From positions 55,377-119,376 of the forward strand of contig JAGWJP010000001.1 of NCBI GenBank assembly GCA_028865725.1: a DNA stretch of 64,000 nucleotides, read 5' to 3'. The notes under the pieces were generated by a model. That model saw only the letters and a program-made list of their open reading frames with translations, made no database searches and was not told where the DNA came from. This DNA is from Patescibacteria group bacterium. GTDB lineage: Bacteria > Patescibacteriota > Minisyncoccia > UBA6257 > JACRHW01. Positions 6,167 to 23,000 of this stretch are shown here, piece after piece. Each line of letters begins with the position of its first letter. Position 1 is the first letter of the stretch. A program made the position numbers and the translations under genes.

Positions 6167-7012
6167 ATGAAAATATTTTTTATGGCGGAACTCACTATTC
6201 TAAAAGCAAACGGCGAACATGAGCCGTTTTCACTTGAAAAGATTAAACGTACGGCGATGCGTGCACAGGCAGACGAACTTCTCGCATCTCGTGTTGCGCA
6301 TGAAGTAGAGCAAAAGGCGTATGACGGCATCTCTACAAAAGAGATTCTCCATTTAATTCGCAATTCTCTTGCTGCTCATTCTCCTGTTGTGGCATCGCGA
6401 TATGGATTAAAGGAGGCAATCTTAAAATTGGGTCCGACAGGTTTTGATTTTGAAAAATATCTTGTTTATGTGTTTAGGGCGTATGGATATCATGCTGAAT
6501 TGCCCCCCCTCTTGCAGGGAATGTGCGTGACGCATGAGGTAGATCTTTTGATTGAAAAAGACAAACGTAGGGGAATGGTAGAAGCTAAGCTCCACCACGA
6601 TCCTATTTATGTGGGTATTCAGGTCACTATGGCAACGTGGGCGCGGTTCTTGGATCTTGTCGATGCGGGGCAGATTGGCAAGTGTCCTCATTTAGATGAA
6701 GTGTGGATGGTGACCAATGGAAAATTTTCTCATGAATCGCTTCAATTTGGGCACTGTAAAAATATGATTCTTTTGGGGTGGAATCATCCTAAAGAACGCC
6801 CTCTTTCAGCCTGGATTGATGACAAGCATTTGTATCCTATTACGATCCTTTATCACTTGTCCGCTGAGGAACACAGAATGCTTGTTGATGCAAACATTAT
6901 CCTGGTAAGCCAGCTTTTGGAACATAAACCTTATGAATTACAACACATTCTTCATACATCAGAAGAACGTATTACTGAATTGTGTCGCGTTTCGGAAGGG
7001 CTTTTGAAGTAA
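6167..7012 (+). CDS. ATP-cone domain protein fused to a restriction-endonuclease-like (Mrr-like) C-terminal domain
   Basis: N-terminus ILKANGEHEPFSLEKIKRTAMRA resembles an ATP cone. The C-terminal nuclease-fold assignment is inference. Confidence 0.45.
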   Translation: MKIFFMAELTILKANGEHEPFSLEKIKRTAMRAQADELLASRVAHEVEQKAYDGISTKEILHLIRNSLAAHSPVVASRYGLKEAILKLGPTGFDFEKYLVYVFRAYGYHAELPPLLQGMCVTHEVDLLIEKDKRRGMVEAKLHHDPIYVGIQVTMATWARFLDLVDAGQIGKCPHLDEVWMVTNGKFSHESLQFGHCKNMILLGWNHPKERPLSAWIDDKHLYPITILYHLSAEEHRMLVDANIILVSQLLEHKPYELQHILHTSEERITELCRVSEGLLK

Positions 7013-7870: not shown

Positions 7871-7945
7871 GGTGCCCATGGTGTAACGGCAACACTAGAG
7901 TTTGTGGAGCTCTCATTACGGGTTCGAGTCCCGTTGGGCACCCCA
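7871..7945 (+). tRNA. tRNA-His (anticodon GTG) with encoded G-1 and 3' CCA
   Basis: G-GTGCCCA...AGAGT-TTGTGGA-GCTCT...ACGGGTTCGAGTCCCGTTGGGCAC-C-CCA. The extra 5' G pairs with discriminator C. Confidence 0.85.
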
Positions 7946-9532
7946 AGAGAGAATTAATTGAGCGAAAGCCTCATTTCGTTCAGTGTTTGTAAGGTTTTTC
8001 GCCAGTTCTAATCGCTTGAATTCCATTTCTAACGCAGGATATGCTTTTTCTATGGGAACGAACCATTCGTTAGGTATTATCACGACTTTTCCGTTTTTGA
8101 GCCAAAAGTTCTGACCAAGTGCTGAAAAGAGCTCTCGCTTCCTTTCCAAGCTACCTGTAAGGAATTCTTTACGAGCATAACAGGCGAAATAAAAAGTCTT
8201 TTCTGTGAGTTCCAGCCACTTGCTGGCTCTATTTTCAGTTTCGTGTAAGTTTTGTTGGAGCTTCAGTATTTTTGCTTTGAGTCCGTCTCGTTCTTTGATG
8301 AATGTCTCGTCATCAATAAGTTCCCGATATCGCATCTTTGTAAGGTTGTCCAATTCTCGCTGGGTAGCAACAAGGGTCTGGTGTTGTGTCTCGTATATTT
8401 TTGTCCGTTCCTCAATTTCTTTGTCATTATCACGATTTAGTATCTCAAGAGCCCATTTTAGGAATTGAGGAAGAATAGTGTATCGTTCAAGTTCAATATC
8501 AATCATTTCCTCGACTTCTTTAAGTGGAATTCTTATCTTTTGGGTACAGACTGCATTTTTCTTTTGATGACCGCAATGATAGTAGACGTAAGCTTTCAAT
8601 TCCATCGTCTTTTTTACTATCTTTATTTTTTCTGTGGCAGTAATCATCCCACCACAAACACTACATACAATAATTCCTGTGTATGCGAAATCGTGTGCTT
8701 TAGGGCGTGGTCTTCCTTTCCGTCCCAAAAGGATTTGGACACGGTCATACTCTTCAAGGGTAATCATTGCTTCATGATTGCCTTGGTATGTAGTTCCTGA
8801 CCAGACGAAAAGACCCGTATAAAATATATTGGAAAATATGCGATACATTTCAGAGAGCGACATCTCTTTATTTCCAAGTTTGCTCCATTTCGGTGTTCGG
8901 AACCCCCATTCATTATTTGCTATGGCAAGTATTTTTGAGGGAGTGTAATTGCCCGTGAGCATCATGTCCCACATTTTGCGAACCAGATGAAATCGTTCTG
9001 GGTCTTTGTAGATAGTATGTTCAAGTTTATCGTTCAAGTAACCAACAGGAGCACGGGATGGGAGCCATCCACGTTCAGCTTTTCCCACCATTCCTCGTCT
9101 GCTATTTTTGCGGAGGTCTATGATGAATTGATTTGCCATTCCGCTTTCAACATTGAAGAGGAGGACATTGTCGTCGGGGAGATATCTGCGGTCTATGGTT
9201 TGGATACACTGCAAGATACCTTGTTGGAGCATCCAGCTTATTGTTCCGCTGTCTATTGGGTTTCTGGAAAGACGATTAATTTGCCAACATAAGATGCCCT
9301 GGGCTTCTCCATTTTCAATTCGTTTGAGCATTTCTGCAAAGACAGGGCGGCAGTTTGGTTTCTTTGCTGATTTTGCTTCTGTGAGTATTTCTTTAATTGA
9401 AATACCAAGGGTGTTTGCAAGTTCTTTAAGGCGGTTTATTTGGTCGTCGATGGATTGAACCTGCCTATCCTCGCTTTCTGATGATTTGCGAGCGTAGAGA
9501 AAATATGTAATTTTTTGGTCTTGTTGTTTCAT
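7916..9532 (-). CDS. Large serine recombinase (integrase). Its 3' end overlaps the tRNA-His 3' end.
   Basis: N-terminal resolvase domain ...YFLYARKSSESEDRQVQSIDDQ (catalytic Ser). Central recombinase domain and a Cys-rich zinc-ribbon region. Confidence 0.85.
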   Translation of the reverse strand: MKQQDQKITYFLYARKSSESEDRQVQSIDDQINRLKELANTLGISIKEILTEAKSAKKPNCRPVFAEMLKRIENGEAQGILCWQINRLSRNPIDSGTISWMLQQGILQCIQTIDRRYLPDDNVLLFNVESGMANQFIIDLRKNSRRGMVGKAERGWLPSRAPVGYLNDKLEHTIYKDPERFHLVRKMWDMMLTGNYTPSKILAIANNEWGFRTPKWSKLGNKEMSLSEMYRIFSNIFYTGLFVWSGTTYQGNHEAMITLEEYDRVQILLGRKGRPRPKAHDFAYTGIIVCSVCGGMITATEKIKIVKKTMELKAYVYYHCGHQKKNAVCTQKIRIPLKEVEEMIDIELERYTILPQFLKWALEILNRDNDKEIEERTKIYETQHQTLVATQRELDNLTKMRYRELIDDETFIKERDGLKAKILKLQQNLHETENRASKWLELTEKTFYFACYARKEFLTGSLERKRELFSALGQNFWLKNGKVVIIPNEWFVPIEKAYPALEMEFKRLELAKNLTNTERNEAFAQLILSWGAQRDSNP

Positions 9533-9671
9533 AAATGAAATTAAAAGGGACGGTTCTGGTTGACCCAATTACTTGCTCACGAGGAGTAGCCTACTGGCAG
9601 AACCGCCCCTTTTAGGGCAGTAAGCAATAAAAAAACTCGTGATGTACTATATAACTGGGCCAACGTAATGA

Positions 9672-10822: not shown

Positions 10823-12742
10823 TTAAAACCCTAATTCATTAGCGTTTATTTCCTTGCTATCGGGCATAATGGGTTCTGAACTCTGGGAACGACCAAATGT
10901 CTCGATAGTATCACCATTTTCTTCACTTTTTGTTTCTTGTTTTTCTTGTTCCGTATATATAGTGGGAACAAGGGAACAAGAATATTGGAATGGGTCTCCC
11001 TTCTTGCCCGAGCCTGTCCTGCCAATCTTTTGAGCTTTCACAAGTTCCTGTAACGCCCTACGTTTATGCGTGGTACGTCCTTCAACGGCATTATCAATAT
11101 CGACTTGTAACATAGGCTCATTAGATGCTTTCAGAAGCTCTAGGATAGCTTCAGAGACCTTCAATACATCATCCTCTTCCTTCGTTCCACCAAAAACCAC
11201 CATTTTGGTGTCTGGGTCAAAAAGCAATATGCTTGGTTCCATGTCTGTGCCATACCGTTGCTGTGTTTCAATAGTCCTTTTACTGTCAGTACGTTTTAGA
11301 ACAATTGCAGTGTCTACAGAACCGAATATCGCTGTAGAGCCGAGTGCGGTATCTGCTCCATCTCCTCCACCTTTTCTGGCGTGGTGAATACCCATCACGT
11401 GTGCCGAATACGTCCTCGCAAGAGAGAGGAGGGGGTCTAAAGCTTTAATCACTTTCGAATAGTCATTTACATCAGAAACACTCGCAAAACGGAACAGAGT
11501 GTCTACAATCACCAGTATAGGTTTTTTCCGCTCTATTTCGCTTTTAAGCCACTCATTTGCACTATCTGGTAGAGAACCTACATAAACTCCCAAATCTTCG
11601 CTTCCTGTGGCTCCCATGAGCTGGAAATGGCTTCTCACTTCGCTACGCTTCTCTTCAAGGGATACATAAAGAACGGCTCCTTGAATAACTTGACGCCCTA
11701 AAAAGGGCTCACCACGTGCAACTGCAAGGGCTGCTTGTCTCGCCAGGGTTGATTTTCCTACTTTTGGCTTTGCTATCACTATTGAGAACCCTCCCGAGGG
11801 AAGTAGGTTCTCAACCACCCAGCTTATTTCTTCTTCTGACTCTTTCAATAAATCATTGAGTGATGTAAAGCCGAATTTGGGAACAACAATCACGGCTGAA
11901 GAAATAGATGCCAGTACTGCTTCACCCCCATGAAGCACACACAAGTCATTAAAATCAGATGGCGTTTCTTCTCCAATTTTTTCTTCTGGTTCAAAAGAGG
12001 GGAAGGCGAGTCTGGCTCCTATAGCCTCGGCAGCTTCTTTTGCTTTTTGAGAGCCGTTTGTATCAGTATCTCCGCAAATGACCACTTCAATATCGGGATA
12101 CTTTCTCCTTATATCCATTGCTGTTGCTTTGAGGTTGCTTGCAGAGAAGGCTATAGCGACCGCATATCCTGTTGTCTCTGCAATGCTCGCCGCTGTGGCA
12201 AAACCTTCCGCTACGCAGAGAATTTTGTCGGGTTCTCTTATGATGGAATAGCACCCCGCCGTCTTTCCACCTTTAAGGAATTTCTTGTTCCCGTTTTCAT
12301 CTACGAATTGAAGTGAGGAAAGAAATCCTTCTGAAGAATAAAGCGGAAGAATAAGGTTGTTGTTCCAGAAGCGGCTATGATAAGCGGATATCTTCTTTTT
12401 TGTGAGATAGGGAAAATTGGCGGGTGGTTGGGATGCTGATTGCCATATCTTCATGGCATCAGTAGATATTTCGTTTTTTGTTTTCCTCATATCCTCCAGA
12501 AGAAGACTACTTGTATCATCCCCAAAATGTTTGGCGAGGGTCATAAGATTTCCCTTTGCGTCACATTTCTTACAGTGAAAGCGACCCGTCTCTTCTTCAA
12601 AGTAGAGATGGGCTTCATTGTTTTTGCTGTCGTCATCGCAATTACTGAAGATACAACGAGTGATGAGCTCCTTTCCGTTTTTACGGAAGGGGATACCTTT
12701 GCGAGTTAGGTATTCTGTAATAGTAATAGTTTGAAAGGTCAT
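10823..12742 (-). CDS. Bifunctional DNA primase / replicative helicase (zinc finger, Toprim, RepA/DnaB-like P-loop ATPase)
   Basis: CHC2-like zinc finger CIFSNCDDDS...FHCKKCDAKG. Toprim ILCVAEGFATAAS...VVICGDTD. Walker A VIAKPKVGKSTLARQAA. Confidence 0.75.
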   Translation of the reverse strand: MTFQTITITEYLTRKGIPFRKNGKELITRCIFSNCDDDSKNNEAHLYFEEETGRFHCKKCDAKGNLMTLAKHFGDDTSSLLLEDMRKTKNEISTDAMKIWQSASQPPANFPYLTKKKISAYHSRFWNNNLILPLYSSEGFLSSLQFVDENGNKKFLKGGKTAGCYSIIREPDKILCVAEGFATAASIAETTGYAVAIAFSASNLKATAMDIRRKYPDIEVVICGDTDTNGSQKAKEAAEAIGARLAFPSFEPEEKIGEETPSDFNDLCVLHGGEAVLASISSAVIVVPKFGFTSLNDLLKESEEEISWVVENLLPSGGFSIVIAKPKVGKSTLARQAALAVARGEPFLGRQVIQGAVLYVSLEEKRSEVRSHFQLMGATGSEDLGVYVGSLPDSANEWLKSEIERKKPILVIVDTLFRFASVSDVNDYSKVIKALDPLLSLARTYSAHVMGIHHARKGGGDGADTALGSTAIFGSVDTAIVLKRTDSKRTIETQQRYGTDMEPSILLFDPDTKMVVFGGTKEEDDVLKVSEAILELLKASNEPMLQVDIDNAVEGRTTHKRRALQELVKAQKIGRTGSGKKGDPFQYSCSLVPTIYTEQEKQETKSEENGDTIETFGRSQSSEPIMPDSKEINANELGF

Positions 12743-12957
12743 AAATCATTGAGACGTTTTATTAATAAGGGGAGCGTTGCTGTTCTATGTTTTTGTATAA
12801 GTTCATATTCTTCTTTAGTCATTGGCTTGTAGATTGCAGACGTCAATTGCAAAAGCTTGATGCCTTTTTCGTAAGCATCTTCTTTTTCTATTTCAGTTCC
12901 AAAGAGCTCTTTATAAAGTGCTTGGAACCTCTCAATGTCTGCATCTGACAAGACCAT
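12739..12957 (-). CDS. Small hypothetical protein, a paralog of the ORF at 20196-20375
   Basis: 72 aa. Shares FxxxYKExFGxxIxxExAxExxxxLLxxxxAIYKPxxKEE with the 20196-20375 ORF. Confidence 0.4.
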   Translation of the reverse strand: MVLSDADIERFQALYKELFGTEIEKEDAYEKGIKLLQLTSAIYKPMTKEEYELIQKHRTATLPLLIKRLNDL

Positions 12958-12961
12958 ATAC

Positions 12962-13255
12962 CTATCTGCTATAGAGTTTATTTTTCAGGGCTTTTATCGC
13001 ATCGAAGAACGACCTTGCTTTCACCTCTAACCTGTCCGCAAAATAATGGTTTGCGACCTCGTTTATTCTGTCTTCACGACGAAAGATGAAAAGAGCCTTG
13101 TTCGGGTTTTCCTTGTTCACCGACAATAATTCAAACCCCATACATAAGAGTGCGGATGATACTCCCAAATCGTATGTGGTAAAGACCACTGACGAGTCAT
13201 CGAGTGGTATGTATTGATAGTCTTCAGACTCATTACTTCCTGTTTTTTTAGTCAT
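12962..13255 (-). CDS. Small hypothetical protein (island cargo)
   Basis: 97-aa ORF, tightly packed with its neighbours. Confidence 0.35.
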   Translation of the reverse strand: MTKKTGSNESEDYQYIPLDDSSVVFTTYDLGVSSALLCMGFELLSVNKENPNKALFIFRREDRINEVANHYFADRLEVKARSFFDAIKALKNKLYSR

Positions 13256-13394
13256 AATTTTTAATATTGGTTAATTGGTTAAGACGACTTTGTCGCTCTG
13301 GCAAAATAAAAAAGCCAAAGCGTACTCTGCTTTGACTTTATCTTTTACCCTTCCGTGTCGGATATGGAGGTGAGAAAGGTGAACTTTTTATTTC

Positions 13395-15632
13395 CTATTT
13401 CTCAAGCCATATCCAGCCTTTTTCTTGTTTGAAAATCGGGAAAAGTTCGCCCTCACCCACTTTCAGTCTAGAGCGAATTTCTCGTAATGTATCATTGATG
13501 TCTTTTGCTTTTCTAAACTGATATTTTTTAATATTAATTAGTGGATTGCAGTGCTTTTTTATCTCATCAACATGAAAATTCATATTTTTGCTTTTGCGGA
13601 GAATTGTTAAAAAAGCACGAGCTTTTCCCTTAAATTGCCACAGAGCAGTTTTATATTCGGCATCGCCACTCTCTGGATAAAAGTTAAGTTTATTTGCAAT
13701 AATTTTTGAATACCTTGCTTTTTTATCGGGTTTGGAGATACCAAGGAATTGGGTGAGTTGGTTTTTTGGAATCTTACCTTCAAAAGTAAGGTAGTCTCCT
13801 TCAGTTACAACTTGTTCTTTTTTTGATTTTGCGTGCGGTGGTAGTTTTAGATAAATCCTACTTAACTCTCCCGTTATTTCTTGCCCTAAATTTATATTCC
13901 ATTTTGTTATGATGTTTCTACTGTTTATTTCGGCTGGAGATGCTTCAAAAAAGTGATAAAGATTTTTTAATAAAAACAGTCCCATTGTCTGGATTTCTGG
14001 AGATTTTGACTGCAATGCATCATAGACCAAGTCTTTCATTGTTTCTTCTTCTCCTCGAATACCTCTCAAATAGATTACAAAATAATAGTAAATCGCCTGT
14101 TCTGTTTCGGCTTTAGATTTTCTTATTTGTCTCTTTACGTCGTCTGATGTAAAACCTAAATCTATTGAGTCCAAAGATTCTCCACTCACCGCTTTATTCC
14201 AACGCACCATATCCCTTGCGTATGCTTTATAGAAAAATGCTAAAGGTCTTAAAAATTTTGCGTTAGGGTCTGCAACTATTCTGCTAAGTTCCATCTGAAA
14301 TCCATTGTGATTTTTTGCAAACGGTGATGCAGATAGGACTTTCAAAAGCCAGAATTTTGTCCATTCAGTAAGCGAGTTGTCGCAATAGATTTTCCAAATT
14401 TTTTCATATTTAGCGTGTATGAATTTTTTATTGGCTTCATAAAAGTTATCGTCAATATCAGAGAGAAAAAATCCTAAATAGCGACATATCAAAAAGGTTA
14501 GAGATGGTTTTTTCGGTATTAACGCAATCAAATCATCAAGTATCTTTGGATTGCCCCATTTTCCTCCAGCCTTGAGGTAATATCGGAGGCAACTTATTTC
14601 CGCCTTCTTTACATCTCCGCCATTTTTAATTTTTCTTAAAATTGTTGGTAATCGTTTGCTTATTTTTGTTATCTTTTGCTTTGATGTTTCGTTAAGTTCT
14701 CCATATGGATTGTAAAACTTTAGCTCTTCAATTTTTTCGGTATTTTTGAGTTTTTCTAATTTTGTTTTCCCATTAAGTTTTAGATTATATTCTCGAAGAA
14801 ATATTACGATTTGAGCAACAATATTATTTATTTTATCGGCACTTTTCGCCATTATCACAGTGTCATCTGCGTAGCGAAAGTATTCAAAGTCATTATTACT
14901 TTTCAAATCATCAAGAAAAGTGTCCAGTGGATAAAGATAGGCATTGGATAAAACGTGAGAAGCGTTTGCACCCTGCGGGATACCACAAAGAGTAGGGGTT
15001 TCAGACCAATTTTTTAGTTGTTGTTCCAGAGTTTTCAGTAGGCGTTCATCTTGTATTTGAAAGCCTTTCTTAAGAATTTTGAGTAGAGTATCAATGTGGA
15101 TATTTTCATAATAGGTTTGTATATCAAACTCTGCTCTCCAGACAAATTTCTTTGCAAAAGCATCTACTTGTTTATCACAGAATTCTGCCCATTGGTTTTT
15201 GTATGGTTTCAGATACTTTTCCTTTCCAAGCACTCTGTTACCTAAACACGAACTGTACATTTTTTTATCTATCGTATTGCCTAAAATTAATGGATTAAGA
15301 AGTGCCTGAAAAACTATTCTGTCCACTACTGAAAAAACACAAATAGGACGAACACCCATATTATCTTTATCGGCATAAATATAATCAGCTTTGTCGGGTT
15401 GATATTTTTCTTGTCGGAGATATTCTTGCAGTGTCTCAAAGAATTCGTCTCCGAGTTGTGTTACAGCACTTATAGCTGGTCTCCATATTGGGTCTAAGGG
15501 TAGAGTGCTCTCATCTGTTTCTTCCTTTAGATATACAAATGCTTTTTTGAGGTTTTCCTTTGAGGAAAAGCTTTCAAACAGGTTCATCAATGTAGGGTAA
15601 TGGTAATTTAATATCGCACCCCAATGTAGCAA
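13395..15632 (-). CDS. Standalone reverse transcriptase with a ~450-aa C-terminal extension (Abi/DRT-like, putative anti-phage)
   Basis: RT motifs GVRPICVFSVVDRIVFQALL, FDIQTYYENI, GIPQGANASHVLSNAYL and YADD (FRYADDTVIM). No adjacent TR/VR repeat was found. Confidence 0.7.
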   Translation of the reverse strand: MLHWGAILNYHYPTLMNLFESFSSKENLKKAFVYLKEETDESTLPLDPIWRPAISAVTQLGDEFFETLQEYLRQEKYQPDKADYIYADKDNMGVRPICVFSVVDRIVFQALLNPLILGNTIDKKMYSSCLGNRVLGKEKYLKPYKNQWAEFCDKQVDAFAKKFVWRAEFDIQTYYENIHIDTLLKILKKGFQIQDERLLKTLEQQLKNWSETPTLCGIPQGANASHVLSNAYLYPLDTFLDDLKSNNDFEYFRYADDTVIMAKSADKINNIVAQIVIFLREYNLKLNGKTKLEKLKNTEKIEELKFYNPYGELNETSKQKITKISKRLPTILRKIKNGGDVKKAEISCLRYYLKAGGKWGNPKILDDLIALIPKKPSLTFLICRYLGFFLSDIDDNFYEANKKFIHAKYEKIWKIYCDNSLTEWTKFWLLKVLSASPFAKNHNGFQMELSRIVADPNAKFLRPLAFFYKAYARDMVRWNKAVSGESLDSIDLGFTSDDVKRQIRKSKAETEQAIYYYFVIYLRGIRGEEETMKDLVYDALQSKSPEIQTMGLFLLKNLYHFFEASPAEINSRNIITKWNINLGQEITGELSRIYLKLPPHAKSKKEQVVTEGDYLTFEGKIPKNQLTQFLGISKPDKKARYSKIIANKLNFYPESGDAEYKTALWQFKGKARAFLTILRKSKNMNFHVDEIKKHCNPLINIKKYQFRKAKDINDTLREIRSRLKVGEGELFPIFKQEKGWIWLEK

Positions 15633-15874
15633 ATTTAAGTCTTGTTCTCAACCCCTTAAAAATCAAGGGTTTCCATTTTTTTGAAATTTGTTTATTATAA
15701 GAACGTCTACCCAAAACGAATACTCCTGAAGAGCTGTCCATTTTCCCCAATTACGGGCAGAAATGGGCAGCTCGAGTTCCATAATTGGGGACTCCTTTGG
15801 GGGTTTTTCGTTATGGGTAGACAGCTCGGGCTGTCCCTTTTTATTTTCAGCTCGAGACATAGTTCTGTCTACCT

Positions 15875-17581
15875 ATGTCTCAAACACAAGAAGAAAAAAA
15901 ATTTCAGGCTCGCATTTCAGAGCTTGAAACCGAAATTAAAAAACTAAAGAAAAGAAAAAAATACGGACTTGTTTGGGAGGAAAAACCAGAACAGGTTGTT
16001 GAATCATGTAAGGAAAAATTACCTGTTTTTTCAGAGAACAAAGATAGAGAAATTAAAGCAGCAAAAAATGAACCCACGAATATTCTTATTGAAGGAGACA
16101 ACTATGATAGTCTCTCTGTTTTGAATTATTCTCACGAAAAGAATATTGACCTAATTTATATAGACCCTCCCTACAATACTGGCAACAAAGATTTTATATA
16201 CAATGACCGTTACATCGATTTAGTAGACACCTACAGGCACAGCAAGTGGCTTTCTTTTATGGAGAAACGGTTAAGGTTGGCAAGAAATTTATTAAAGGAG
16301 ACGGGAGTTGTTTTTATTAGTATCGATGATAATGAGTTTGCACGGTTAAAGTTGTTATGTGATGAAATTTTTGGAGAAAAGAATTTTGTAACTACGATTA
16401 CAATTCAGGTTAATAAGGGTGGGAGGGATTATTTGCCATTGGCTGTAACGCACGAGTATATTCTTTGTTATTTTAAAGGGAATGCTGGACAGTTAAATGA
16501 GCTATCAAAGGAGATTGATTTTGAACTCGAAGACACAGGGGGTAAATATGAATTAAGGGAATTAAGAAATCGTAATCCGAAATTTAGTAAAAAAAATCGA
16601 CCCAATCTTTACTATCCGATTTATGTCAGTCCAATGAGTAAAGATGGAAACGAACAATGCATCGTGTCTTTAGAAAAATCAAAAGATTTTAACGTTGAAG
16701 TCTTTCCTCTTAATAGTAAGGGTGAGGAAGGTTGCTGGCGTTGGGGTCGAGAACTTACGCTAAAAAATTTAGCGAGCAGTACAGATCTATCTAATATAGT
16801 CGGCAGGCAACGTAGAGATGGTGGATGGAATATTTATGAAAAATCTAGAAAGGCTACCACAAAAGCGAAATCAATCTGGGATGAAACTGGCGTAAGGACA
16901 GAACAAGGAACAATTGATTTGCGAGAACTCGGAATGGCGAACCTTTTCGACCACCCAAAGCCAGTTTATCTCATAAAGAAAATGGTCAGATTGGCTACTA
17001 AAGAAGATTCTGTAATTTTAGATTTTATGGCTGGTTCAGGTACTACGGGTCAAGCAGTTTTAGAACTTAATAAAGAAGATGGTGGTACTCGTAAATTTAT
17101 CTTATGTACTAATAACGAAAATAAAATTGCTGAAGAAGTATGCTATTTACGCATTAAAAAAGTAATCGAAGGATACAAGAATCCTAAAAACGAGGAAATT
17201 GCTGGCTTGGGTGGCAACCTCAAATACTATAAAACCGACTTTGTCGACGCAGAACCAACTGACAAAAACAAAAAGATGCTCGTTGATAAATCGACCGAAA
17301 TGCTTTGTCTCAAAGAAGATTGTTTTGATGTAGTCAAAAAAGGTAGCGAATATAAGCTTTTCAAAAATAGTAAGGATAAATATCTCGGTATCATCTACGA
17401 CGATACAGGCATTGAACCATTCAAAAGTGAAATAAAAAAACTGAACAAGAAAGCTACTGTTTATGTTTTTTCACTAGACGAGAGTGCCCGAGAAGAGGAA
17501 TTTGAGAATATTGCGAACCTTGTTGAACCAAAACCAATACCCGCCGCTATTCTTAACGTGTATAAACGCATATTCAAATGA
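15875..17581 (+). CDS. mod: Type III restriction-modification methyltransferase (Mod, beta-class N6A/N4C MTase)
   Basis: Motif IV DLIYIDPPYNTGNKDF comes before motif I ILDFMAGSGTTGQAV. The stop overlaps the res start (ATGA). Confidence 0.85.
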   Translation: MSQTQEEKKFQARISELETEIKKLKKRKKYGLVWEEKPEQVVESCKEKLPVFSENKDREIKAAKNEPTNILIEGDNYDSLSVLNYSHEKNIDLIYIDPPYNTGNKDFIYNDRYIDLVDTYRHSKWLSFMEKRLRLARNLLKETGVVFISIDDNEFARLKLLCDEIFGEKNFVTTITIQVNKGGRDYLPLAVTHEYILCYFKGNAGQLNELSKEIDFELEDTGGKYELRELRNRNPKFSKKNRPNLYYPIYVSPMSKDGNEQCIVSLEKSKDFNVEVFPLNSKGEEGCWRWGRELTLKNLASSTDLSNIVGRQRRDGGWNIYEKSRKATTKAKSIWDETGVRTEQGTIDLRELGMANLFDHPKPVYLIKKMVRLATKEDSVILDFMAGSGTTGQAVLELNKEDGGTRKFILCTNNENKIAEEVCYLRIKKVIEGYKNPKNEEIAGLGGNLKYYKTDFVDAEPTDKNKKMLVDKSTEMLCLKEDCFDVVKKGSEYKLFKNSKDKYLGIIYDDTGIEPFKSEIKKLNKKATVYVFSLDESAREEEFENIANLVEPKPIPAAILNVYKRIFK

Positions 17582-19758
17582 TTACTCTCAAGGATTATCA
17601 AAAACAGGCAGTAGAAAACCTGCATAGGAAAATAGAGAATTCATTACGTTCTCCAGAGAATGAAGTGGTTGTTTTTCAGGCTCCTACTGGTTCTGGAAAG
17701 ACGGTGATGGTATCCGAGCTCCTAAAAGAACTCATAAATAACAGGCAAGATGACAAAAAACTTTCTTTTATTTGGATTTCGGTGAGGATGCTCCATGAAC
17801 AGAGTAAGGAACGCCTAGAAAAATACTATGAGGACGATAGAAGTCTCAAATGTTCCTATTTTGAAGACTTGGAAGACAGAAAAATAGGAGAAAATGAAAT
17901 CCTGTTCGTTAATTGGCATAGCATAAACAAGAAAGACAAAAACACAATAGTTAAAGAAAACGAACAAGAATTTTATCTCGAAAAAGTCCTAGAAAATACC
18001 AGAGAAGATGGGCGAGATATTGTTTTAATTATAGACGAAAGCCACCACACGGCTGGTTCCCAGAAATCGAGGGAACTTATAGAAACCATAAGCCCAAAGG
18101 TGACTCTAGAGGTCTCCGCTACACCGCATTTGGAAGAGAATGCTGCTGAAAAAGAAAAAGTCCACCTTTCGGACGTTAAAGCGGAAGAAATGATTAAGTC
18201 AGAAATATCCGTAAATCCAGAATTTCTTGATATCAAAGTAGGTTCCAAAAGCTCTGATGAAATTGTAATTGAAGAAGCTCTCAAAAAACGGGATGAGCTT
18301 GCGAAGATGTACAAGAAAGAAGGGGTAAACATTAACCCCCTAATGCTTGTACAGCTTCCCGATGCAAAGGCTGGTCTTGCCGACAAAAAAGAGGAGATAT
18401 TAACAATACTTCACAAACAGGGCGTAGAGGACGAGAACATCGCTATTTGGCTATCGGAAGATAAATCTGATACTTTGCCGAACATAGAGAAAAACGATAA
18501 TGATGTGAACGTCCTTATATTCAAACAAGCCATCGCACTTGGATGGGACTGCCCGAGAGCTTCTATCTTGGTTATTTTCAGAGAGTCAAAGAGCTTCACG
18601 TTTACCATCCAAACCATTGGTAGAATAATGCGGATGCCTGAACTGAAATATTATACGAAGGAGCCAGAACTAAATAAAGGGTTTGTATTTACCAACCTAG
18701 CCAATATTGAGGTTACCGAAGATTATGCAAAAGACTATGTAACTCAATATGAAGCAAAACGAGATAAATTATATAAAAACATATCACTACCCTCTATTTA
18801 CTTAAAACGCCAAAGAGAAAGAACCCGTTTATCTGGCGAATTTATTAAATTCTTTCTTAAAATTGCGAAGGAAAAGGATTTAGCAAAAGAAATAAATCCG
18901 AAACCAAAGAAAATAATAAGCCCCATAATTGCTGATGGAAGGATAATAGATATAGATAAATCGGGGGAAATAGAGCACAGGGGTACTCTAGAAATTGGGT
19001 TGAGTGAGAAAGAGCTTGGAAAGAAATTTGATAAATTTATTGCTCAAAATTGCACTCCTTATGCTCCTGCTGATTCTAGCGACAGAATGAAAACAGCTTT
19101 ATATCAGTTCTTTAATCAGGAGTTCAAAATACCGAAATACGAACCCAAGGTTCAACGGATTGTGCTAGGTGAAGAAAACGTGCAGTTATTTGTAAACGTT
19201 ATCAATTTGGCAAAGGAAAAATATAAGAAAGATATAGTTGAAAAGCTTGCCGAGAAACGTGAGCTTATTGAAACAAAGGATTGGGAAGTACCTCTCGTTA
19301 CCAGCTACAACAGCAGGTATCAGATGGAAGAACAACCCTTATCCGTTATGAAACCGTTTTATACGGCAAAACAAAGCGAGCCAGAACGCTTATTTATTGA
19401 ATTTCTCAACAAATCAAAGAACGTAAAGTGGTGGTACAAAAATGGCGAGGCGGAAATCAAGTATTTTGCGGTTTTGCGAGATGACGACCTCGCATTCTAT
19501 CCCGACTTCATTATTCAGCTCAAAGATGGAAGTATCGCTATATTTGATACCAAATCGGGAAGAACGGCAGAAACAAGTGATGCAGCACCCAGAGCCGAAG
19601 CACTACAACGATATATCAAAAAACAAAATAAATCAGGCAAAAATCTATTCGGTGGTATCGCTATTTATGTGAATGGCACATGGCGATACAACGACAAAGA
19701 GAAATATGAGTATAATTCCGATGATTTGTCGGATTGGAAAGTGTTAACTGAATTATGA
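17578..19758 (+). CDS. res: Type III restriction enzyme Res subunit (SF2 helicase plus endonuclease)
   Basis: Walker A FQAPTGSGKTVMVSEL. DEAH-like LIIDESHH. 726 aa. Translationally coupled to mod. Confidence 0.85.
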   Translation: MITLKDYQKQAVENLHRKIENSLRSPENEVVVFQAPTGSGKTVMVSELLKELINNRQDDKKLSFIWISVRMLHEQSKERLEKYYEDDRSLKCSYFEDLEDRKIGENEILFVNWHSINKKDKNTIVKENEQEFYLEKVLENTREDGRDIVLIIDESHHTAGSQKSRELIETISPKVTLEVSATPHLEENAAEKEKVHLSDVKAEEMIKSEISVNPEFLDIKVGSKSSDEIVIEEALKKRDELAKMYKKEGVNINPLMLVQLPDAKAGLADKKEEILTILHKQGVEDENIAIWLSEDKSDTLPNIEKNDNDVNVLIFKQAIALGWDCPRASILVIFRESKSFTFTIQTIGRIMRMPELKYYTKEPELNKGFVFTNLANIEVTEDYAKDYVTQYEAKRDKLYKNISLPSIYLKRQRERTRLSGEFIKFFLKIAKEKDLAKEINPKPKKIISPIIADGRIIDIDKSGEIEHRGTLEIGLSEKELGKKFDKFIAQNCTPYAPADSSDRMKTALYQFFNQEFKIPKYEPKVQRIVLGEENVQLFVNVINLAKEKYKKDIVEKLAEKRELIETKDWEVPLVTSYNSRYQMEEQPLSVMKPFYTAKQSEPERLFIEFLNKSKNVKWWYKNGEAEIKYFAVLRDDDLAFYPDFIIQLKDGSIAIFDTKSGRTAETSDAAPRAEALQRYIKKQNKSGKNLFGGIAIYVNGTWRYNDKEKYEYNSDDLSDWKVLTEL

Positions 19759-20030: not shown

Positions 20031-20194
20031 TGCTTTCTATTGAAAAGTGTCGTGAGATATTAGGCGATGAATATGCTGGGCTTTCTGATGAAAGGCTGGC
20101 TCAAATTAGGGATGAACTATCTGAACTTGCTCGGATAGCTCTCGATGCCTACATTAAGAAACAGAAACAAGGTAAGATTGCTAACAATAGTTAA
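20030..20194 (+). CDS. Hypothetical small protein (54 aa)
   Basis: ATG overlaps the upstream TAA. Reads MLSIEKCREILGDEYAGLSDERLAQIRDEL... Below the ORF-track length cutoff. Confidence 0.3.
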   Translation: MLSIEKCREILGDEYAGLSDERLAQIRDELSELARIALDAYIKKQKQGKIANNS

Positions 20195-20195
20195 A

Positions 20196-20375
20196 ATGAT
20201 TTCTGAAGAGGCATTTGAAGAATACAAAAAGATATATAAAGAAGAATTTGGTGCCGATATTACTGATGAAGAGGCAATGGAACAAGCCACAAGTCTTTTG
20301 ACGATGATGAACGCTATCTACAGACCCGTCAAAAAGGAGTGGCTTGATGATTTGGAAAAACGTGATAATGTATAA
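20196..20375 (+). CDS. Small hypothetical protein, a paralog of the ORF at 12739-12957
   Basis: MISEEAFEEYKKIYKEEFGADITDEEAMEQATSLLTMMNAIYRPVKKEW. Confidence 0.4.
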   Translation: MISEEAFEEYKKIYKEEFGADITDEEAMEQATSLLTMMNAIYRPVKKEWLDDLEKRDNV

Positions 20376-20559: not shown

Positions 20560-21111
20560 ATGACAGACGAAACATTTTGGAAAGATAAATCGGTTATTCT
20601 TGATACAAATATCCTTTCGCAGTTAGCAAAGGAAAAACGGGCGGATAAGTTCCGTCCCGTTTTTGATTTTTTTAAAAACAATAATATCGACCCACTTTTG
20701 ATTGATGCAACTTATTTTGAACTTTTAGGATTTACGGCAAATAAAAGCGATTTCGATTTTCTTGCTGAATGGGTTAAACAGTTTCCAATATTGCCGACCA
20801 AATCGGAGGATGTTGAATTAGCGTCCCTACTCTCGTCTTATTATAAAAACCTAGACCCCGAACTTAACAAAAAACAGATATCATACTGTGATTGTTTGCA
20901 CGCAGCACAACTGATTAAATTTGGTGGACGGGTATTTATTGTAACTACTGATATACATGATTATCCCATTTCTATTTTTGATATAAAAAGTATTCAAATT
21001 ATTGAAGATAATAAAAAAGCTGTGCTAGTTGGATTTATCACTTTTAATAAAGAGAAACTAGAAAAAGCAAGAATAAATTTTGAGAAATCAATTCAGGAGA
21101 AACGAGGATAG
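20560..21111 (+). CDS. PIN-domain protein (putative nuclease / toxin-like)
   Basis: Acidic residues arranged as in PIN domains: ILDTNIL, FELLG, YCDCLHAA, VTTDIHDY. Confidence 0.55.
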   Translation: MTDETFWKDKSVILDTNILSQLAKEKRADKFRPVFDFFKNNNIDPLLIDATYFELLGFTANKSDFDFLAEWVKQFPILPTKSEDVELASLLSSYYKNLDPELNKKQISYCDCLHAAQLIKFGGRVFIVTTDIHDYPISIFDIKSIQIIEDNKKAVLVGFITFNKEKLEKARINFEKSIQEKRG

Positions 21112-21343: not shown

Positions 21344-22129
21344 ATGTCTAACATCGTAAGCCCAAACAAACTGTCAGTACACAAGCAGCACGAGGTGCTT
21401 CTCAAGCTCGAAGCAGCGGGTCTCAACGACACCCTTGCCCAGAAGCTCGTCGACTCCAAAGACAATGACCTTGCTACGAGAGTGGTACGGCTCATCGAAA
21501 ACGGAGGCATCGAGCCGAGCACGAGTCAGAAGATGGCACGTAGCATCATGGGCAAGAACTTCTTTGGTGTGGAAGAGGCAGTGAAGCACTTCGGTGTCAA
21601 TCCCACGAAGGCTCAGCTCGCTCTTCTCGCCGAGATTCCGTTTACCAAAGCGGAGCTCAAAGAAAAGAAGAACTCCCATATCCTCGTCGCCGTCTTCCCG
21701 CTCTCCATCCTCGACATTCGTGGCAAGATGACCACCAAGGTTTTCTACAACCAGGACTGGTACAACAACCAGGACTGGTACAACAACCAGGACTTCGCCA
21801 AGAATCGTGGAGAAGTGGGATGGTATCTCATTCGCAAGACTCCCGTGGAGAATTCGACGAACAAGACGTGGCAAGAGCAGCAGGCTCTTCTCTCCGACAA
21901 GGATGAGACGCCGACTGCTCGGGTCATGGTCTATGCTATCGTCGGTCATTACCTGGCAACGGGTGAGCGACTTTTTGAGAGAATCTATGTACGCTGTTCG
22001 GACCTCGGTTCGGACGGCCGCCGTGTCAGCGTCGGTTACTTCGCTGCTCGTGGGCTGGGCGTCAGCGACTGCTGGGGTGATGACCGTTTCTCCAGCGTCG
22101 GTCTCGCCTCCGCTCGGAAGTCCAACTGA
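21344..22129 (+). CDS. DGR-1 target (variable) protein. Its C-terminal ~40 aa are encoded by the variable repeat.
   Basis: 261 aa. The C-terminus ...GSDGRRVSVGYFAARGLGVSDCWGDDRFSSVGLASAR is homologous to TR1 with adenine-specific differences. Shares NQDWYN and other segments with the DGR-2 targets. Confidence 0.8.
   Translation: MSNIVSPNKLSVHKQHEVLLKLEAAGLNDTLAQKLVDSKDNDLATRVVRLIENGGIEPSTSQKMARSIMGKNFFGVEEAVKHFGVNPTKAQLALLAEIPFTKAELKEKKNSHILVAVFPLSILDIRGKMTTKVFYNQDWYNNQDWYNNQDFAKNRGEVGWYLIRKTPVENSTNKTWQEQQALLSDKDETPTARVMVYAIVGHYLATGERLFERIYVRCSDLGSDGRRVSVGYFAARGLGVSDCWGDDRFSSVGLASARKSN
21749..21794 (+). repeat. Tandem 18-bp repeat (2.5 units) inside the DGR-1 target
   Basis: aaccaggactggtacaac repeated. 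Encodes NQDWYN-NQDWYN-NQD. Confidence 0.8.
22002..22123 (+). repeat. DGR-1 variable repeat (VR1)
   Basis: ~122 bp matching TR1 (22490-22611). Every mismatch is at a TR adenine (e.g. TR AAC to VR CGC/AGC/TAC). GC-rich 3' end atcggtctcgcctccgctcgg is identical (IMH-like). Confidence 0.8.
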
Positions 22130-22489
22130 ACCTAGAACCTTGAAGCCTTGAGCTTCTTCGACCCCTTGAGTTTCCCGCAACGATTTGCGTGAGACTCTTG
22201 GGGTTTTTTCTTTTTGAATTCTTTTTTGATACAATATCCTTGTTCTGCTTTTGAAGGTGAGGCTACGGTTTCATCTCGCAGATGTCTCTTCTTTGAGACT
22301 TCGCCAGAATAGCAGTTGTCTACGGATACCGCTAGCGTGCGAATAAAGATGGAGATTGGACTTCTTGCTCATCTTTGGTGGAGATGGTTTCACAACTTGC
22401 TCCCAAATAAAATACAGAAAGGAGAGGATATAGACTCCCGTGAGTAGTAACCCTCGATTTTCAGTGACAGAGAGGAAGATGGGCAAATT

Positions 22490-22611
22490 TCTCGATTCGG
22501 ACGGCAACCGTGTCAACGTCGGTAACTTCGATGCTAATGGGCTGAACGTCAACAACTACTGGGATGATAACCGTAACTCCAACATCGGTCTCGCCTCCGC
22601 TCGGCACTCTT
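22490..22611 (+). repeat. DGR-1 template repeat (TR1), rich in AAC codons
   Basis: gattcggacggcaaccgtgtcaacgtcggtaacttcgatgctaatgggctgaacgtcaacaactactgggatgataaccgtaactccaacatcggtctcgcctccgctcgg. Followed by the hairpin aacacccc-tttc-ggggtgtt. Confidence 0.8.
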
Positions 22612-22645
22612 TTCTCTATCACAACAACACCCCTTTCGGGGTGTT

Positions 22646-22996: not shown

Positions 22997-23000
22997 AATT

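What the first reader, a model, noticed from the sequence alone, without database searches (positions are those of the whole stretch)
13395..15632. 745-aa standalone reverse transcriptase inside the tRNA-His island, next to a Type III R-M system
The protein has RT motifs 1-7 with YADD, then about 450 aa of helical extension. This is the Abi/DRT defence-RT architecture.

No template/variable-repeat pair flanks it.

It sits between a replication module (primase-helicase) and mod/res on a mobile island. That looks like a defence cluster.

The C-terminal domain has no motif I can recognise. Which defence class it belongs to is open.
Basis: partly seen in the sequence, partly recalled or inferred. 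Interest (0 to 1): 0.65.

Follow-up and report, generated by a model that had tools for sequence, protein, structure and literature searches.

The report
Abi-type reverse transcriptase with DNA-binding tail
A real 730-residue Abi/DRT-type reverse transcriptase in an uncultured Patescibacteria genome carries an unexpected OmpR-like DNA-binding tail and fills a swappable slot of an integrative mobile element, so it is probably an anti-phage DNA-synthesising enzyme tied to that element.

Summary
The ORF is real. It most likely starts at the ATG at 15587 (730 aa, an exact match to a Patescibacteria MAG protein). It has an intact RT domain (YADD, aa 239-242), a helical alphaRep-like domain (aa ~300-545) and, newly recognised, an OmpR/PhoB-type winged helix (aa ~634-730).

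Profiles and predicted fold place it among Class 1 UG/Abi RTs (AbiK, Abi-P2, AbiA, DRT4). It is nearest UG19 but not a core member: 168 bits against 341-607 for true UG19, and no HEPN-like tail.

It is not loose defence-island cargo. In about 40 related loci it holds a fixed slot: variable cargo (often R-M), then RT, DUF5659, primase-helicase and a serine recombinase. In sister elements the slot holds non-RT proteins with the same winged helix. A 14-nt repeat motif (TTCACNTTTCTCRC) follows the stop codon in every locus with this tail, and only there.

The RT-mod gap does hold a covarying structured RNA. It is on the mod strand and pairs with the mod start site, so I read it as a mod leader, not an RT template.

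Best reading (inferred, untested): a protein-primed, untemplated ssDNA polymerase acting in defence or exclusion, tethered or autoregulated through its DNA-binding tail.

The parts
13395..15587 (-). RT gene, 730 aa from the ATG at 15587 (stop 13395-13397). An upstream in-frame TTG at 15632 would give 745 aa.
   Evidence: A 100% full-length match to the 730-aa P0001.
14769..15359 (-). RT (fingers/palm) domain, aa 77-273. The catalytic YADD is at nt 14862-14873 (aa 239-242), and the motif A Asp is D155.
   Evidence: Pfam RVT_1 at 2.4e-15. Invariant D155, Y239 and D241 in A1.
13953..14690 (-). Helical repeat (alphaRep-like) domain, aa ~300-545. This is the Class 1 UG/Abi hallmark that takes the place of the thumb.
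   Evidence: The AF2 model shows helices 300-542 at pLDDT mostly 80-97. The UG19 profile aligns through it. AbiA, DRT4, Abi-P2 and AbiK align over 376-430 residues, and Foldseek's top hit is Abi-P2.
13398..13688 (-). C-terminal OmpR/PhoB-type winged-helix DNA-binding domain, aa ~634-730 ('type A' CTD). The module is interchangeable and also ends many non-RT proteins.
   Evidence: Domain model at pLDDT 87.6. All top-50 Foldseek PDB hits are OmpR-family DNA-binding domains such as CovR, ToxR, VicR, OmpR and PhoP. The same domain ends non-RT proteins.
13370..13383 (-). TTCACCTTTCTCAC: two TCAC repeats 9 bp apart, starting 12 nt after the RT stop codon. Candidate binding site of the winged helix.
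   Evidence: The pattern TTCACNTTTCTCRC occurs once in each of the 7 fetched loci that contain the end of a type A CTD gene, always just after its stop codon, and in none of the other 94 loci. It occurs once in the island. Within-window repeat test p=0.017.
13301..13339 (-). Intrinsic terminator of the RT gene: an 11-bp stem followed by a U-run.
   Evidence: It is conserved in 7 loci, with one compensatory pair.
15623..15651 (-). Promoter-like site for the RT (TTGAGA-17-TACATT, TG-extended). The last ~30 nt before the ATG are the only conserved part of the upstream region.
   Evidence: This is a consensus match only.
15692..15848 (+). Conserved six-helix structured RNA ending in a terminator-like hairpin. 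It is transcribed towards mod, and its helix-1 3' arm can pair with the 8 nt preceding the mod ATG (15865-15872). Read as a mod leader, not an RT partner.
12962..13255 (-). DUF5659 gene, the invariable downstream neighbour of the slot gene.
   Evidence: Pfam DUF5659 at 7.9e-11. Synteny.
10823..12742 (-). Toprim + AAA_25 primase-helicase (element replication module).
7916..9568 (-). Large serine recombinase. Its 3' end overlaps the 3' end of tRNA-His (7872-7945, +), which marks one end of the element.
15875..19758 (+). Type III R-M (mod 15875-17581, res 17578-19758). Variable cargo next to the slot.

Best explanation
**What it is.** The gene encodes a Class 1 UG/Abi-type reverse-transcriptase-like DNA polymerase. 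Its RT + alphaRep core is UG19-like, but it forms a separate, Patescibacteria-restricted group.

**How it most likely works (inferred).** By analogy with the characterised single-gene Class 1 enzymes (AbiK, Abi-P2, AbiA, DRT4), I infer that it makes single-stranded DNA without a nucleic-acid template. Synthesis would be primed from one of its own tyrosines. Y129 is a speculative candidate: it is nearly invariant and lies in a flexible loop. The DNA product would become toxic or act as a decoy when a phage or rival element interferes, giving abortive infection or exclusion.

**What is particular here (shown).**
- The polymerase is fused to an OmpR/PhoB-type winged helix.
- The gene occupies a fixed, modular slot at the head of the backbone of a small integrative element (slot gene, DUF5659, small ORF, primase-helicase, two ORFs, serine recombinase at tRNA-His).
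- A CTD-specific repeat motif lies directly after the stop codon.

**Role of the tail (inferred).** The winged helix binds that motif. It would either tether the enzyme to its own element or autoregulate the RT and the downstream backbone operon.
For: **Class assignment.**
- All 23 family members hit PADLOC UG19 best, followed by UG21, UG23, UG22, UG9 and UG20. All of these are Class 1 groups (classes as in PMC9226505).
- The predicted structure (pTM 0.75) has an RT domain followed by a helical domain.
- Foldseek's top hit is Abi-P2 over 524 columns, with AbiK over ~600 columns.
- The catalytic residues are intact and invariant.

**No template RNA found.**
- Rfam finds nothing.
- The upstream region is not conserved among close relatives.
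- The downstream gap folds only into a terminator.
- The structured RNA in the mod gap is on the opposite strand and is coupled to the mod start codon.

**Mechanism of relatives (literature).**
- AbiK and Abi-P2 carry out protein-primed, untemplated synthesis (PMC9508834).
- DRT4 makes random ssDNA from Tyr125, stabilised by a phage ssDNA-binding protein (PMC12783706).

**Winged helix and its site:**

**Arms-race-like modularity.**
- RT identity is uncoupled from backbone identity. In L033 the recombinase is 75% identical but the RT only 36%.
- At least 4 unrelated CTD types sit on RT cores that are 55-75% identical.
- R-M systems are frequent neighbours.
Against: - There is no experimental evidence for any member of this family, and UG19 itself has never been validated.
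- The slot is also filled by non-RT proteins carrying the same winged helix. The conserved job of the slot may therefore be regulatory or replicative rather than defensive.
- The cargo next to the slot is not always defence-related. It includes peptidases, a ZIP transporter and a transglutaminase-like protein.
- No effector domain is present, such as the HEPN of AbiA or UG19.
- Direct-repeat enrichment after the stop codon is weak when tested per locus (mean 4.27 against 3.82 in shuffles). The case for the site rests on conservation across loci.
- The structured RNA in the mod gap, present in 5 RT loci, cannot be fully excluded as a partner.
- The relative domain arrangement in the AF2 model is uncertain, and residues 587-730 are low-confidence in the full-length model.
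Confidence: 0.55

Rival explanations
1. The slot protein is the element's own regulator or replication initiator. Its winged helix would bind iteron-like repeats next to the primase-helicase operon. The RT domain would then serve the element's life cycle rather than host defence, for example through protein-primed DNA synthesis at an origin, or by sensing a signal to induce the element.
For: - The slot, its orientation and its distance to DUF5659 and the primase-helicase are conserved in about 40 loci.
- The same winged helix sits on non-RT proteins in the same slot.
- The repeats following the stop codon are specific to CTD type: TCAC, TGAAY, GTGAGTC, TAAATCCTTT, TTCTTTAAA.
- OmpR-type domains are classical transcription-factor modules.
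Against: - An essential initiator or regulator would not be expected to tolerate wholesale replacement of a 620-aa enzymatic N-terminus by unrelated 100-400-aa domains.
- RT identity is uncoupled from backbone identity.
- Every characterised relative of the RT core is a defence enzyme.
- There is only one repeat cluster per element, with two repeats in the window, which is few for an origin.
Confidence: 0.17
2. The RT works together with the adjacent Type III R-M as one composite defence system, with the RT and mod/res functionally coupled.
For: - A divergent N6_N4 methyltransferase lies directly upstream of the RT in about 19 loci. Res accompanies it in 8 of these.
- HpaII-type R-M occupies that position in L005.
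- A shared intergenic region holds back-to-back promoters and a conserved RNA.
Against: - About 11 RT loci with enough upstream flank have no methyltransferase there.
- The methyltransferases belong to different types and are only 28-67% identical.
- A Mod/Res pair also sits next to non-RT slot genes (L096).
- R-M is therefore common cargo of the element family, not a partner of the RT.
Confidence: 0.1
3. The RT is RNA-templated, in the manner of Class 2 DRTs or retrons. It would use a nearby ncRNA, for example the structured RNA at 15692-15848 or the 3' UTR.
For: - A strongly covarying RNA lies within 250 nt of the RT start in 5 loci whose RTs are only 36-71% identical to each other.
- The RNA is more conserved than either flanking protein.
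Against: - The RNA is read from the opposite strand. Its G-U pairs and its terminator are on the + strand.
- In 4 of 4 loci it is followed by a mod ORF whose start region covaries with helix 1.
- It is absent at E<=1 from about 45 other loci, including the closest RT relatives L011, L012 and L013.
- The conserved 3' element tracks the CTD type and persists where the RT is replaced.
- The alphaRep architecture is that of the untemplated class.
Confidence: 0.07
4. It is a group II intron maturase, a retron RT or a DGR RT that has been misread.
Against: - Those matches cover only ~250-290 residues.
- There is no intron or msr/msd RNA and no thumb/X or endonuclease domain.
- The DGR has its own 348-aa RT, bAvd and TR/VR pair.
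- Full-length profiles and folds go to UG/Abi.
Confidence: 0.02

Closest known systems
UG19 (Class 1 UG/Abi RT; Mestre et al. 2022, PMC9226505)
   Same: It is the best-scoring profile for all 23 family members, and the alignment runs through both the RT and helical domains. Overall size is similar (~700 aa). In that paper UG19 is predicted, not shown, to be defensive.
   Different: The window protein scores 168 bits with a 30-bit margin over UG21. Bona fide UG19 proteins score 341-607 bits with margins of 200-380 bits. Identity is only ~28%, over the RT domain. UG19 carries a HEPN-like C-terminal domain or a separate HEPN-like gene (Rx4-6H-like tails, by my reading). This protein ends in an OmpR-like winged helix and has no HEPN neighbour.
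AbiK / Abi-P2 (protein-primed, template-independent Abi polymerases; PMC9508834)
   Same: Single-gene RT plus helical domain, with no thumb. They are the best full-length Foldseek matches. Abi-P2 is likewise carried by a mobile element (P2-like prophages; from my own knowledge).
   Different: Sequence identity is 10-16%. The priming Tyr loop (aa 21-57 in AbiK) has no tyrosine at the equivalent position here. They have no DNA-binding C-terminal domain. The oligomeric state of this protein is unknown.
DRT4 / UG15 (PMC12783706)
   Different: Identity is ~15%. The Y129 equivalence was not tested by alignment. DRT4 has no winged helix, is not tied to an element slot, and is a proteobacterial system.
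AbiA (RT + alphaRep + HEPN; PMC11077055)
   Different: The extra module in AbiA is a HEPN nuclease. Here it is a DNA-binding winged helix.
UG32 (Class 1 RT fused to an HTH; PMC9226505)
   Same: It is a precedent for a Class 1 RT fused to a DNA-binding domain. It is also a significant PADLOC hit (1.5e-29).
   Different: It is a weaker profile match than UG19, UG21 or UG23. The type and position of the HTH in UG32 were not compared here.

Membership tests
Class 1 UG/Abi reverse transcriptases | RT domain with intact catalytic motifs (motif A Asp, YxDD) | tested here: met
   RVT_1 at 2.4e-15. YADD at aa 239-242, with D155, Y239 and D241 invariant in 23 homologues.
Class 1 UG/Abi reverse transcriptases | C-terminal alpha-helical repeat (alphaRep) domain in place of a thumb | tested here: met
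   The AF2 model has helices at aa 300-542. Only AbiA, DRT4, Abi-P2 and AbiK align over 376-430 residues. Foldseek's top hit is Abi-P2.
Class 1 UG/Abi reverse transcriptases | Closest sequence profiles are Class 1 groups | tested here: met
   UG19, UG21, UG23, UG22, UG9_large, UG20 and UG32 are the top hits for all 23 members.
Class 1 UG/Abi reverse transcriptases | Protein-primed, template-independent DNA synthesis; anti-phage phenotype | not testable with these tools
   Inferred only, from AbiK, Abi-P2, DRT4 and AbiA.
UG19 | Strong, specific match to the UG19 profile | tested here: inconclusive
   UG19 is the best hit, but at 168 bits with a 30-bit margin. True UG19 proteins score 341-607 bits.
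UG19 | HEPN-like domain fused at the C-terminus (UG19-large) or encoded by a co-located gene (UG19-small) | tested here: not met
   The C-terminus is an OmpR-type winged helix. The neighbours are DUF5659 and a 72-aa ORF with no HEPN hit.
OmpR/PhoB winged-helix DNA-binding domains (for aa 634-730) | Fold: N-terminal beta-sheet, three helices, C-terminal beta-hairpin wing | tested here: met
   Domain model at pLDDT 87.6. All top-50 Foldseek PDB hits are OmpR-family DNA-binding domains, TM 0.6-0.77.
OmpR/PhoB winged-helix DNA-binding domains (for aa 634-730) | Match to the Trans_reg_C sequence profile | tested here: not met
   No Pfam hit at E<=1. No significant PDB sequence hit. Membership is at the level of fold only.
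OmpR/PhoB winged-helix DNA-binding domains (for aa 634-730) | Binds tandem direct repeats | not testable with these tools
   The candidate site TTCACNTTTCTCRC is present in 7 of 7 fetched type A loci that include the gene end, plus the window, and in 0 of 94 others. Binding itself is untested.
Group II intron RT/maturase | Intron RNA (domains I-VI) around the ORF; X/thumb and D/En domains | tested here: not met
   No Rfam intron hit at E<=10 in 12000-17000. The C-terminal part is alphaRep plus a winged helix.
Retron | Co-oriented msr/msd ncRNA next to a ~300-400-aa RT | tested here: not met
   No Rfam hit. The only structured RNA is on the opposite strand and is coupled to mod. The protein is 730 aa.
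Diversity-generating retroelement | TR/VR pair with adenine-specific mismatches, Avd, ~350-aa RT | tested here: not met
   These features exist in the window, but they belong to a separate RT at 23001-24047.
Class 2 ncRNA-dependent DRTs (DRT2, DRT9, DRT10) | Conserved co-oriented ncRNA adjacent to an RT without alphaRep | tested here: not met
   The upstream region is not conserved. The 3' gap folds only into a terminator. An alphaRep domain is present. Drt9 and UG17 are weaker profile hits.

The most novel reading that the evidence does not exclude
The RT is not primarily a host-defence gene. It would be one of several interchangeable N-terminal 'heads' mounted on a site-specific winged-helix 'foot', and this foot would dock the slot protein onto its own integrative element. 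On this reading, a mobile element uses a DNA-tethered, protein-primed polymerase for its own life cycle. The polymerase might prime or trigger element replication, or convert a phage-infection signal into element induction, much as satellite elements exploit helper phages. This would be a new biological role for Abi-type RTs and a new modular regulator class in Patescibacteria.
Probability: 0.15. Interest if true: 0.85.

Novelty: new variant of a known kind. Interest (0 to 1): 0.56.

Why it matters
Patescibacteria (CPR) have tiny genomes and few recognised defence systems. Class 1 UG/Abi RTs have so far been studied only in cultivable Proteobacteria and Firmicutes.

This locus matters for three reasons:
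- It extends the Class 1 RTs into CPR with a distinct, UG19-like group.
- It shows a fusion, not seen in the Class 1 descriptions I read apart from UG32's HTH, of an Abi-type polymerase to an OmpR-type DNA-binding domain, with a recognisable cognate DNA motif.
- It reveals a head-swapping slot in a widespread family of small integrative elements (serine recombinase, primase-helicase, DUF5659).

The slot gives a natural experiment for asking what Abi-type DNA synthesis is for. The same 'foot' and the same element carry either an RT or unrelated heads.

The covarying leader RNA found in front of Type III mod genes is also a candidate new cis-regulatory RNA class for R-M establishment.

Tried and rejected
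- **Conserved ncRNA upstream of the RT, on the RT strand.** Aligning 13 upstream regions shows conservation only in the last ~30 nt before the ATG. Rejected.
- **ncRNA in the RT-DUF5659 gap.** Only an intrinsic terminator is supported. The conserved unpaired motif tracks the CTD type, not the RT.
- **Rfam at a permissive threshold over 12000-17000.** Only noise.
- **Statistical test for direct repeats after the stop codon, per locus.** Significant in some loci (window p=0.017; L023, L094, L098, L007) but not overall (mean 4.27 against 3.82). I therefore rely on conservation across loci.
- **att-type direct repeats for the island.** None found. This is expected for a serine recombinase. The far boundary (~21.1-21.3 kb) is inferred only from the G+C shift and gene content.
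- **Sequence-level identification of the C-terminal domain.** Failed in Pfam and in a PDB profile search. Only the fold search worked.
- **Word-indexed homologue search with the CTD alone.** Found just one protein.
- **Relatives in other collections.** None in IMG/VR. Only RT-domain-level hits in sequenced phages and plasmids.
- **Supplementary tables of the UG/Abi paper.** Not held.
- **Priming tyrosine.** I could not align Y129 with DRT4 Tyr125 because no DRT4 sequence or coordinates were available. Y129 remains a guess.
Full report
**1. The observation**

The window has an ORF at 13395..15632 on the minus strand, 745 aa from a TTG start. The ATG at 15587 is the more likely start. It gives a 730-aa protein that is 100% identical over its full length to a deposited hypothetical protein of a 'Patescibacteria group bacterium' MAG (P0001, on a 463-kb contig).

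Pfam RVT_1 matches aa 77-273 at E 2.4e-15. The YADD box is at aa 239-242. D155, Y239 and D241 are invariant across 23 homologues.

- tRNA-His at 7872-7945;
- a large serine recombinase at 7916-9568, whose stop overlaps the tRNA 3' end;
- a Toprim+AAA_25 primase-helicase at 10823-12742;
- a DUF5659 protein at 12962-13255;
- divergently upstream, Type III mod (15875-17581; PADLOC MTase_III 4.6e-90) and res (17578-19758).

G+C is 34-38% across 13-21 kb, against 42-48% outside.

**2. What kind of RT it is**

*Sequence profiles.* Against PADLOC the protein hits RT_UG19 best, at 1.2e-49. The alignment covers aa 4-703 against profile positions 3-556 of 562. UG21, UG23, UG22, UG9_large and UG20 follow. 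All 23 aligned family members behave the same way. According to Mestre et al. 2022 these are all Class 1 UG/Abi groups, defined by a C-terminal alpha-helical repeat (alphaRep) domain (PMC9226505).

*Not a core UG19 member.* Proteins from the representative library that are true UG19 score 341-607 bits on that profile, with 200-380-bit margins over UG21. The window protein scores 168 bits with a 30-bit margin, and shares only ~28% identity with them, over the RT domain. UG19 is also characterised by a HEPN-like C-terminal domain or an adjacent HEPN-like gene. The true UG19 sequences end in Rx4-6H-like tails (by my reading). The window protein does not. I therefore file it as a Class 1 UG/Abi RT with a UG19-like core, in a separate clade.

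*Distribution.* All close homologues come from Patescibacteria MAGs (Minisyncoccia, Moranbacteria, Saccharibacteria, WWE3) or unbinned metagenomes. There are none in IMG/VR. Sequenced phages and plasmids give only RT-domain-level hits.

**3. The C-terminus**

The homologue alignment shows a conserved core, aa 1 to ~620, followed by unrelated C-terminal modules.

An exhaustive representative search showed that aa ~620-730 of the window protein is an independent domain. It also ends many short non-RT proteins of 130-550 aa, at up to 79% identity.

Modelled from a 52-sequence alignment, the domain is confident (pLDDT 87.6). Its topology is a beta-sheet, three helices and a beta-hairpin wing. All top-50 Foldseek PDB matches are OmpR/PhoB-family DNA-binding domains, including CovR, ToxR, VicR, OmpR, PhoP and CadC (TM 0.6-0.77). 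Sequence profiles did not detect this.

**4. Genomic context: a conserved, modular slot**

*Synteny.* I compared the island proteins by tblastn against 10 genome loci and 43 metagenome loci that encode RT relatives. The order RT, DUF5659, 72-aa ORF, primase-helicase, 121-aa ORF, 197-aa ORF, serine recombinase appears in essentially every locus with enough flank. It holds down to 31-37% RT identity.

*R-M is cargo.* A divergent N6_N4 methyltransferase lies directly upstream of the RT in about 19 loci, with Res in 8 of them. About 11 loci have other genes there instead: HpaII R-M plus NYN, peptidases, a ZIP transporter, a transglutaminase-like protein. R-M is therefore frequent but variable cargo.

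*RT and backbone are uncoupled.* In L033 the recombinase is 75% and the 121-aa ORF 72% identical to the window's, but the RT is only 36% identical. In L002 the RT is 71% and the recombinase 61% identical.

*The slot also holds non-RT proteins.* Non-RT proteins with the same winged helix sit in exactly the same slot, immediately upstream of DUF5659 and the primase-helicase. Where the contig extends far enough (L093) a serine recombinase follows. An unbiased sample seeded from DUF5659 gave at least 504 clusters, against 39 for the RT, although the sensitivities of the two searches differ. That sample returned three further distinct elements, each seen as two places (L096/L097, L098/L099, L100/L101). 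Their slot genes are non-RT proteins that end, by eye, in OmpR-like tails. One of these tails is 47% identical to the CTD of the RTs in L014 and L027.

*CTDs are swapped too.* RT cores that are 55-75% identical to each other carry at least four unrelated CTD types.

The RT is thus one of several interchangeable heads on a DNA-binding foot, at a fixed position of an integrative element family.

**5. A cognate DNA motif**

Directly after the stop codon of the slot gene lies a short motif that depends on the CTD type. For the window's type it is TTCACCTTTCTCAC (13370-13383, minus strand), with TCAC repeated at a 9-bp spacing.

The pattern TTCACNTTTCTCRC occurs once in each of the seven fetched loci that contain the end of a type A CTD gene: L002, L011, L012, L091, L093, L094 and L095. 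Four of these encode non-RT heads. In every case it lies just after the stop codon. It occurs in none of the other 94 loci. In the window, the looser pattern TCACNNNNNTCAC occurs only twice, once here and once outside the island.

Other CTD types have other motifs at this place:
- TGAAY repeats (L014, L027, L100);
- GTGAGTC twice, 11 bp apart (L098);
- TAAATCCTTT twice;
- TTCTTTAAA twice;
- AAATTAGCCC repeats (L028);
- a CTGAAAAATCAG palindrome in the 31-37% clade.

A per-locus repeat test is significant only in some loci and not overall. The evidence is the association across loci, not repeat statistics.

The motif region is unpaired in the consensus fold. The only conserved RNA structure in this gap is an 11-bp intrinsic terminator. 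I infer, without a test, that the winged helix binds this motif.

**6. The gap between the RT and mod**

- The 287-nt gap folds far better than shuffles: z -6.7 on the + strand and -5.2 on the - strand.
- BLAST found copies in L045 and L029. A covariance model then found copies in L032 (106 bits) and L002 (33 bits), neither of which was in the seed. All copies lie at the same place and in the same orientation.
- On the five sequences, 92% of cells pair, against at most 50% for slid controls. Of 39 pairs, 22 show compensatory changes (the alignment is model-fitted, which favours the structure).
- The RNA (15692-15848) is read from the + strand. Its G-U pairs and a hairpin-plus-U-run terminator are on that strand.
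- In all four loci with downstream sequence, a methyltransferase ORF starts 27-45 nt after the U-run.
- The 8 nt before the mod ATG copy the 5' arm of helix 1 and covary with it: GTCTACCT|ATG in the window, GTCCACCT|ATG in L045, GTTCAACT|ATG in L032, GTACATCT|ATG in L002.

The 3' arm of helix 1 can therefore pair alternatively with the mod translation start. I read this as a cis-regulatory leader of mod.

The RNA is absent at E<=1 from about 45 other loci. These include the closest RT relatives and several RT loci with mod/res. I conclude that it is not an msr/msd-like partner of the RT, although this cannot be fully excluded.

**7. Mechanism**

*Shown.*
- An intact polymerase active site.
- Class 1 architecture.
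- An OmpR-like DNA-binding domain.
- A conserved slot.
- A CTD-linked DNA motif.
- The RT's own terminator, plus a promoter-like site that is only a consensus match.
- No detectable template RNA.

*Inferred from characterised relatives.* The enzyme would carry out protein-primed, template-independent ssDNA synthesis. This is established for AbiK (Tyr44) and Abi-P2 (Tyr61) (PMC9508834), for AbiA, and for DRT4 (Tyr125). In DRT4 the ssDNA is degraded by host exonuclease until a phage ssDNA-binding protein protects it (PMC12783706; overview in PMC13213688). [quoted passage not shown]

*Speculative.* Y129, which is nearly invariant and lies in a low-confidence loop before motif A, may be the priming residue.

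The winged helix would tether the enzyme to its own element or autoregulate the locus. I put 0.55 on this overall reading.

*Main rival (0.17).* The conserved role of the slot is regulation or replication initiation for the element, and the RT head serves the element rather than host defence.

*Other rivals.* Coupling to the R-M (0.10), RNA-templated synthesis (0.07), and an intron, retron or DGR identity (0.02).

**8. Novelty and verdict**

The kind of system, an Abi/DRT-type RT, is known. What is new is threefold:
- a Patescibacteria-restricted, UG19-like group;
- its fusion to an OmpR-type winged helix with a recognisable cognate motif;
- its place as one interchangeable head in a slot of a widespread integrative element family.

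I rate it a new variant of a known kind, with interest about 0.56. No function has been tested for any member, so all functional statements remain inferences.

Noticed in passing
window 15692-15848 (+), with 15865-15877: A conserved six-helix RNA with a terminator-like 3' hairpin lies just upstream of the Type III mod gene. The 8 nt before the mod ATG repeat the 5' arm of helix 1 and covary with it in four loci. This suggests a translational or attenuation switch for mod. There is no Rfam family for it.
   Followed up: yes
window 21344-24047: A complete diversity-generating retroelement sits beside the island. Its parts are a target ORF at 21344-22129 with VR at 22004-22122, a TR at 22491-22609 whose mismatches fall at TR adenines, bAvd at 22646-22996 (-), and a 348-aa RT at 23001-24047 (+). 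Homologues of this RT also lie near the element in L043 (62% identity) and L005 (45%).
   Followed up: partly
L091, L093, L094, L095, L096, L098, L100 (slot gene upstream of DUF5659): In sister elements the RT slot is occupied by 159-501-aa proteins with no Pfam domain. Those in L091, L093, L094 and L095 carry the same type A winged helix, and L100 shares its tail with the RTs of L014/L027. The tails of L096 and L098 look OmpR-like by eye only. Their N-terminal 'heads' are uncharacterised.
   Followed up: partly
L003, L005, L008, L031-L034, L037, L042-L044, between the RT and DUF5659: In the 31-37% RT clade the post-stop motif is a palindrome, CTGAAAAATCAG, at the tip of the first terminator hairpin. 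An inverted copy (GCTGATTTTTCAGC) lies just upstream of a conserved CATATAGGGTGAGGG promoter-like box. This looks like a two-operator layout.
   Followed up: partly
window 20145-20375 and 20560-21111 (+): A 76-aa ORF, weakly similar to the element's 72-aa ORF, is followed by a PIN-domain protein (PF01850, 1.9e-5). This may be a VapBC-like toxin-antitoxin pair at the cargo end of the island.
   Followed up: no
window 7872-7945 / 7916-9568: The serine recombinase ORF ends inside the 3' part of tRNA-His. This suggests that the element integrated into the tRNA gene and supplies its 3' end. No long att direct repeats were found.
   Followed up: partly
window 21747-21800: Three tandem 18-nt units (ACAACCAGGACTGGTACA, the third diverged) lie inside the DGR target ORF.
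   Followed up: no
window 6167-7012 (+): A 281-aa protein combines an ATP-cone with an Mrr_cat restriction-endonuclease-like domain. It lies in the tRNA cluster just outside the island.
   Followed up: no
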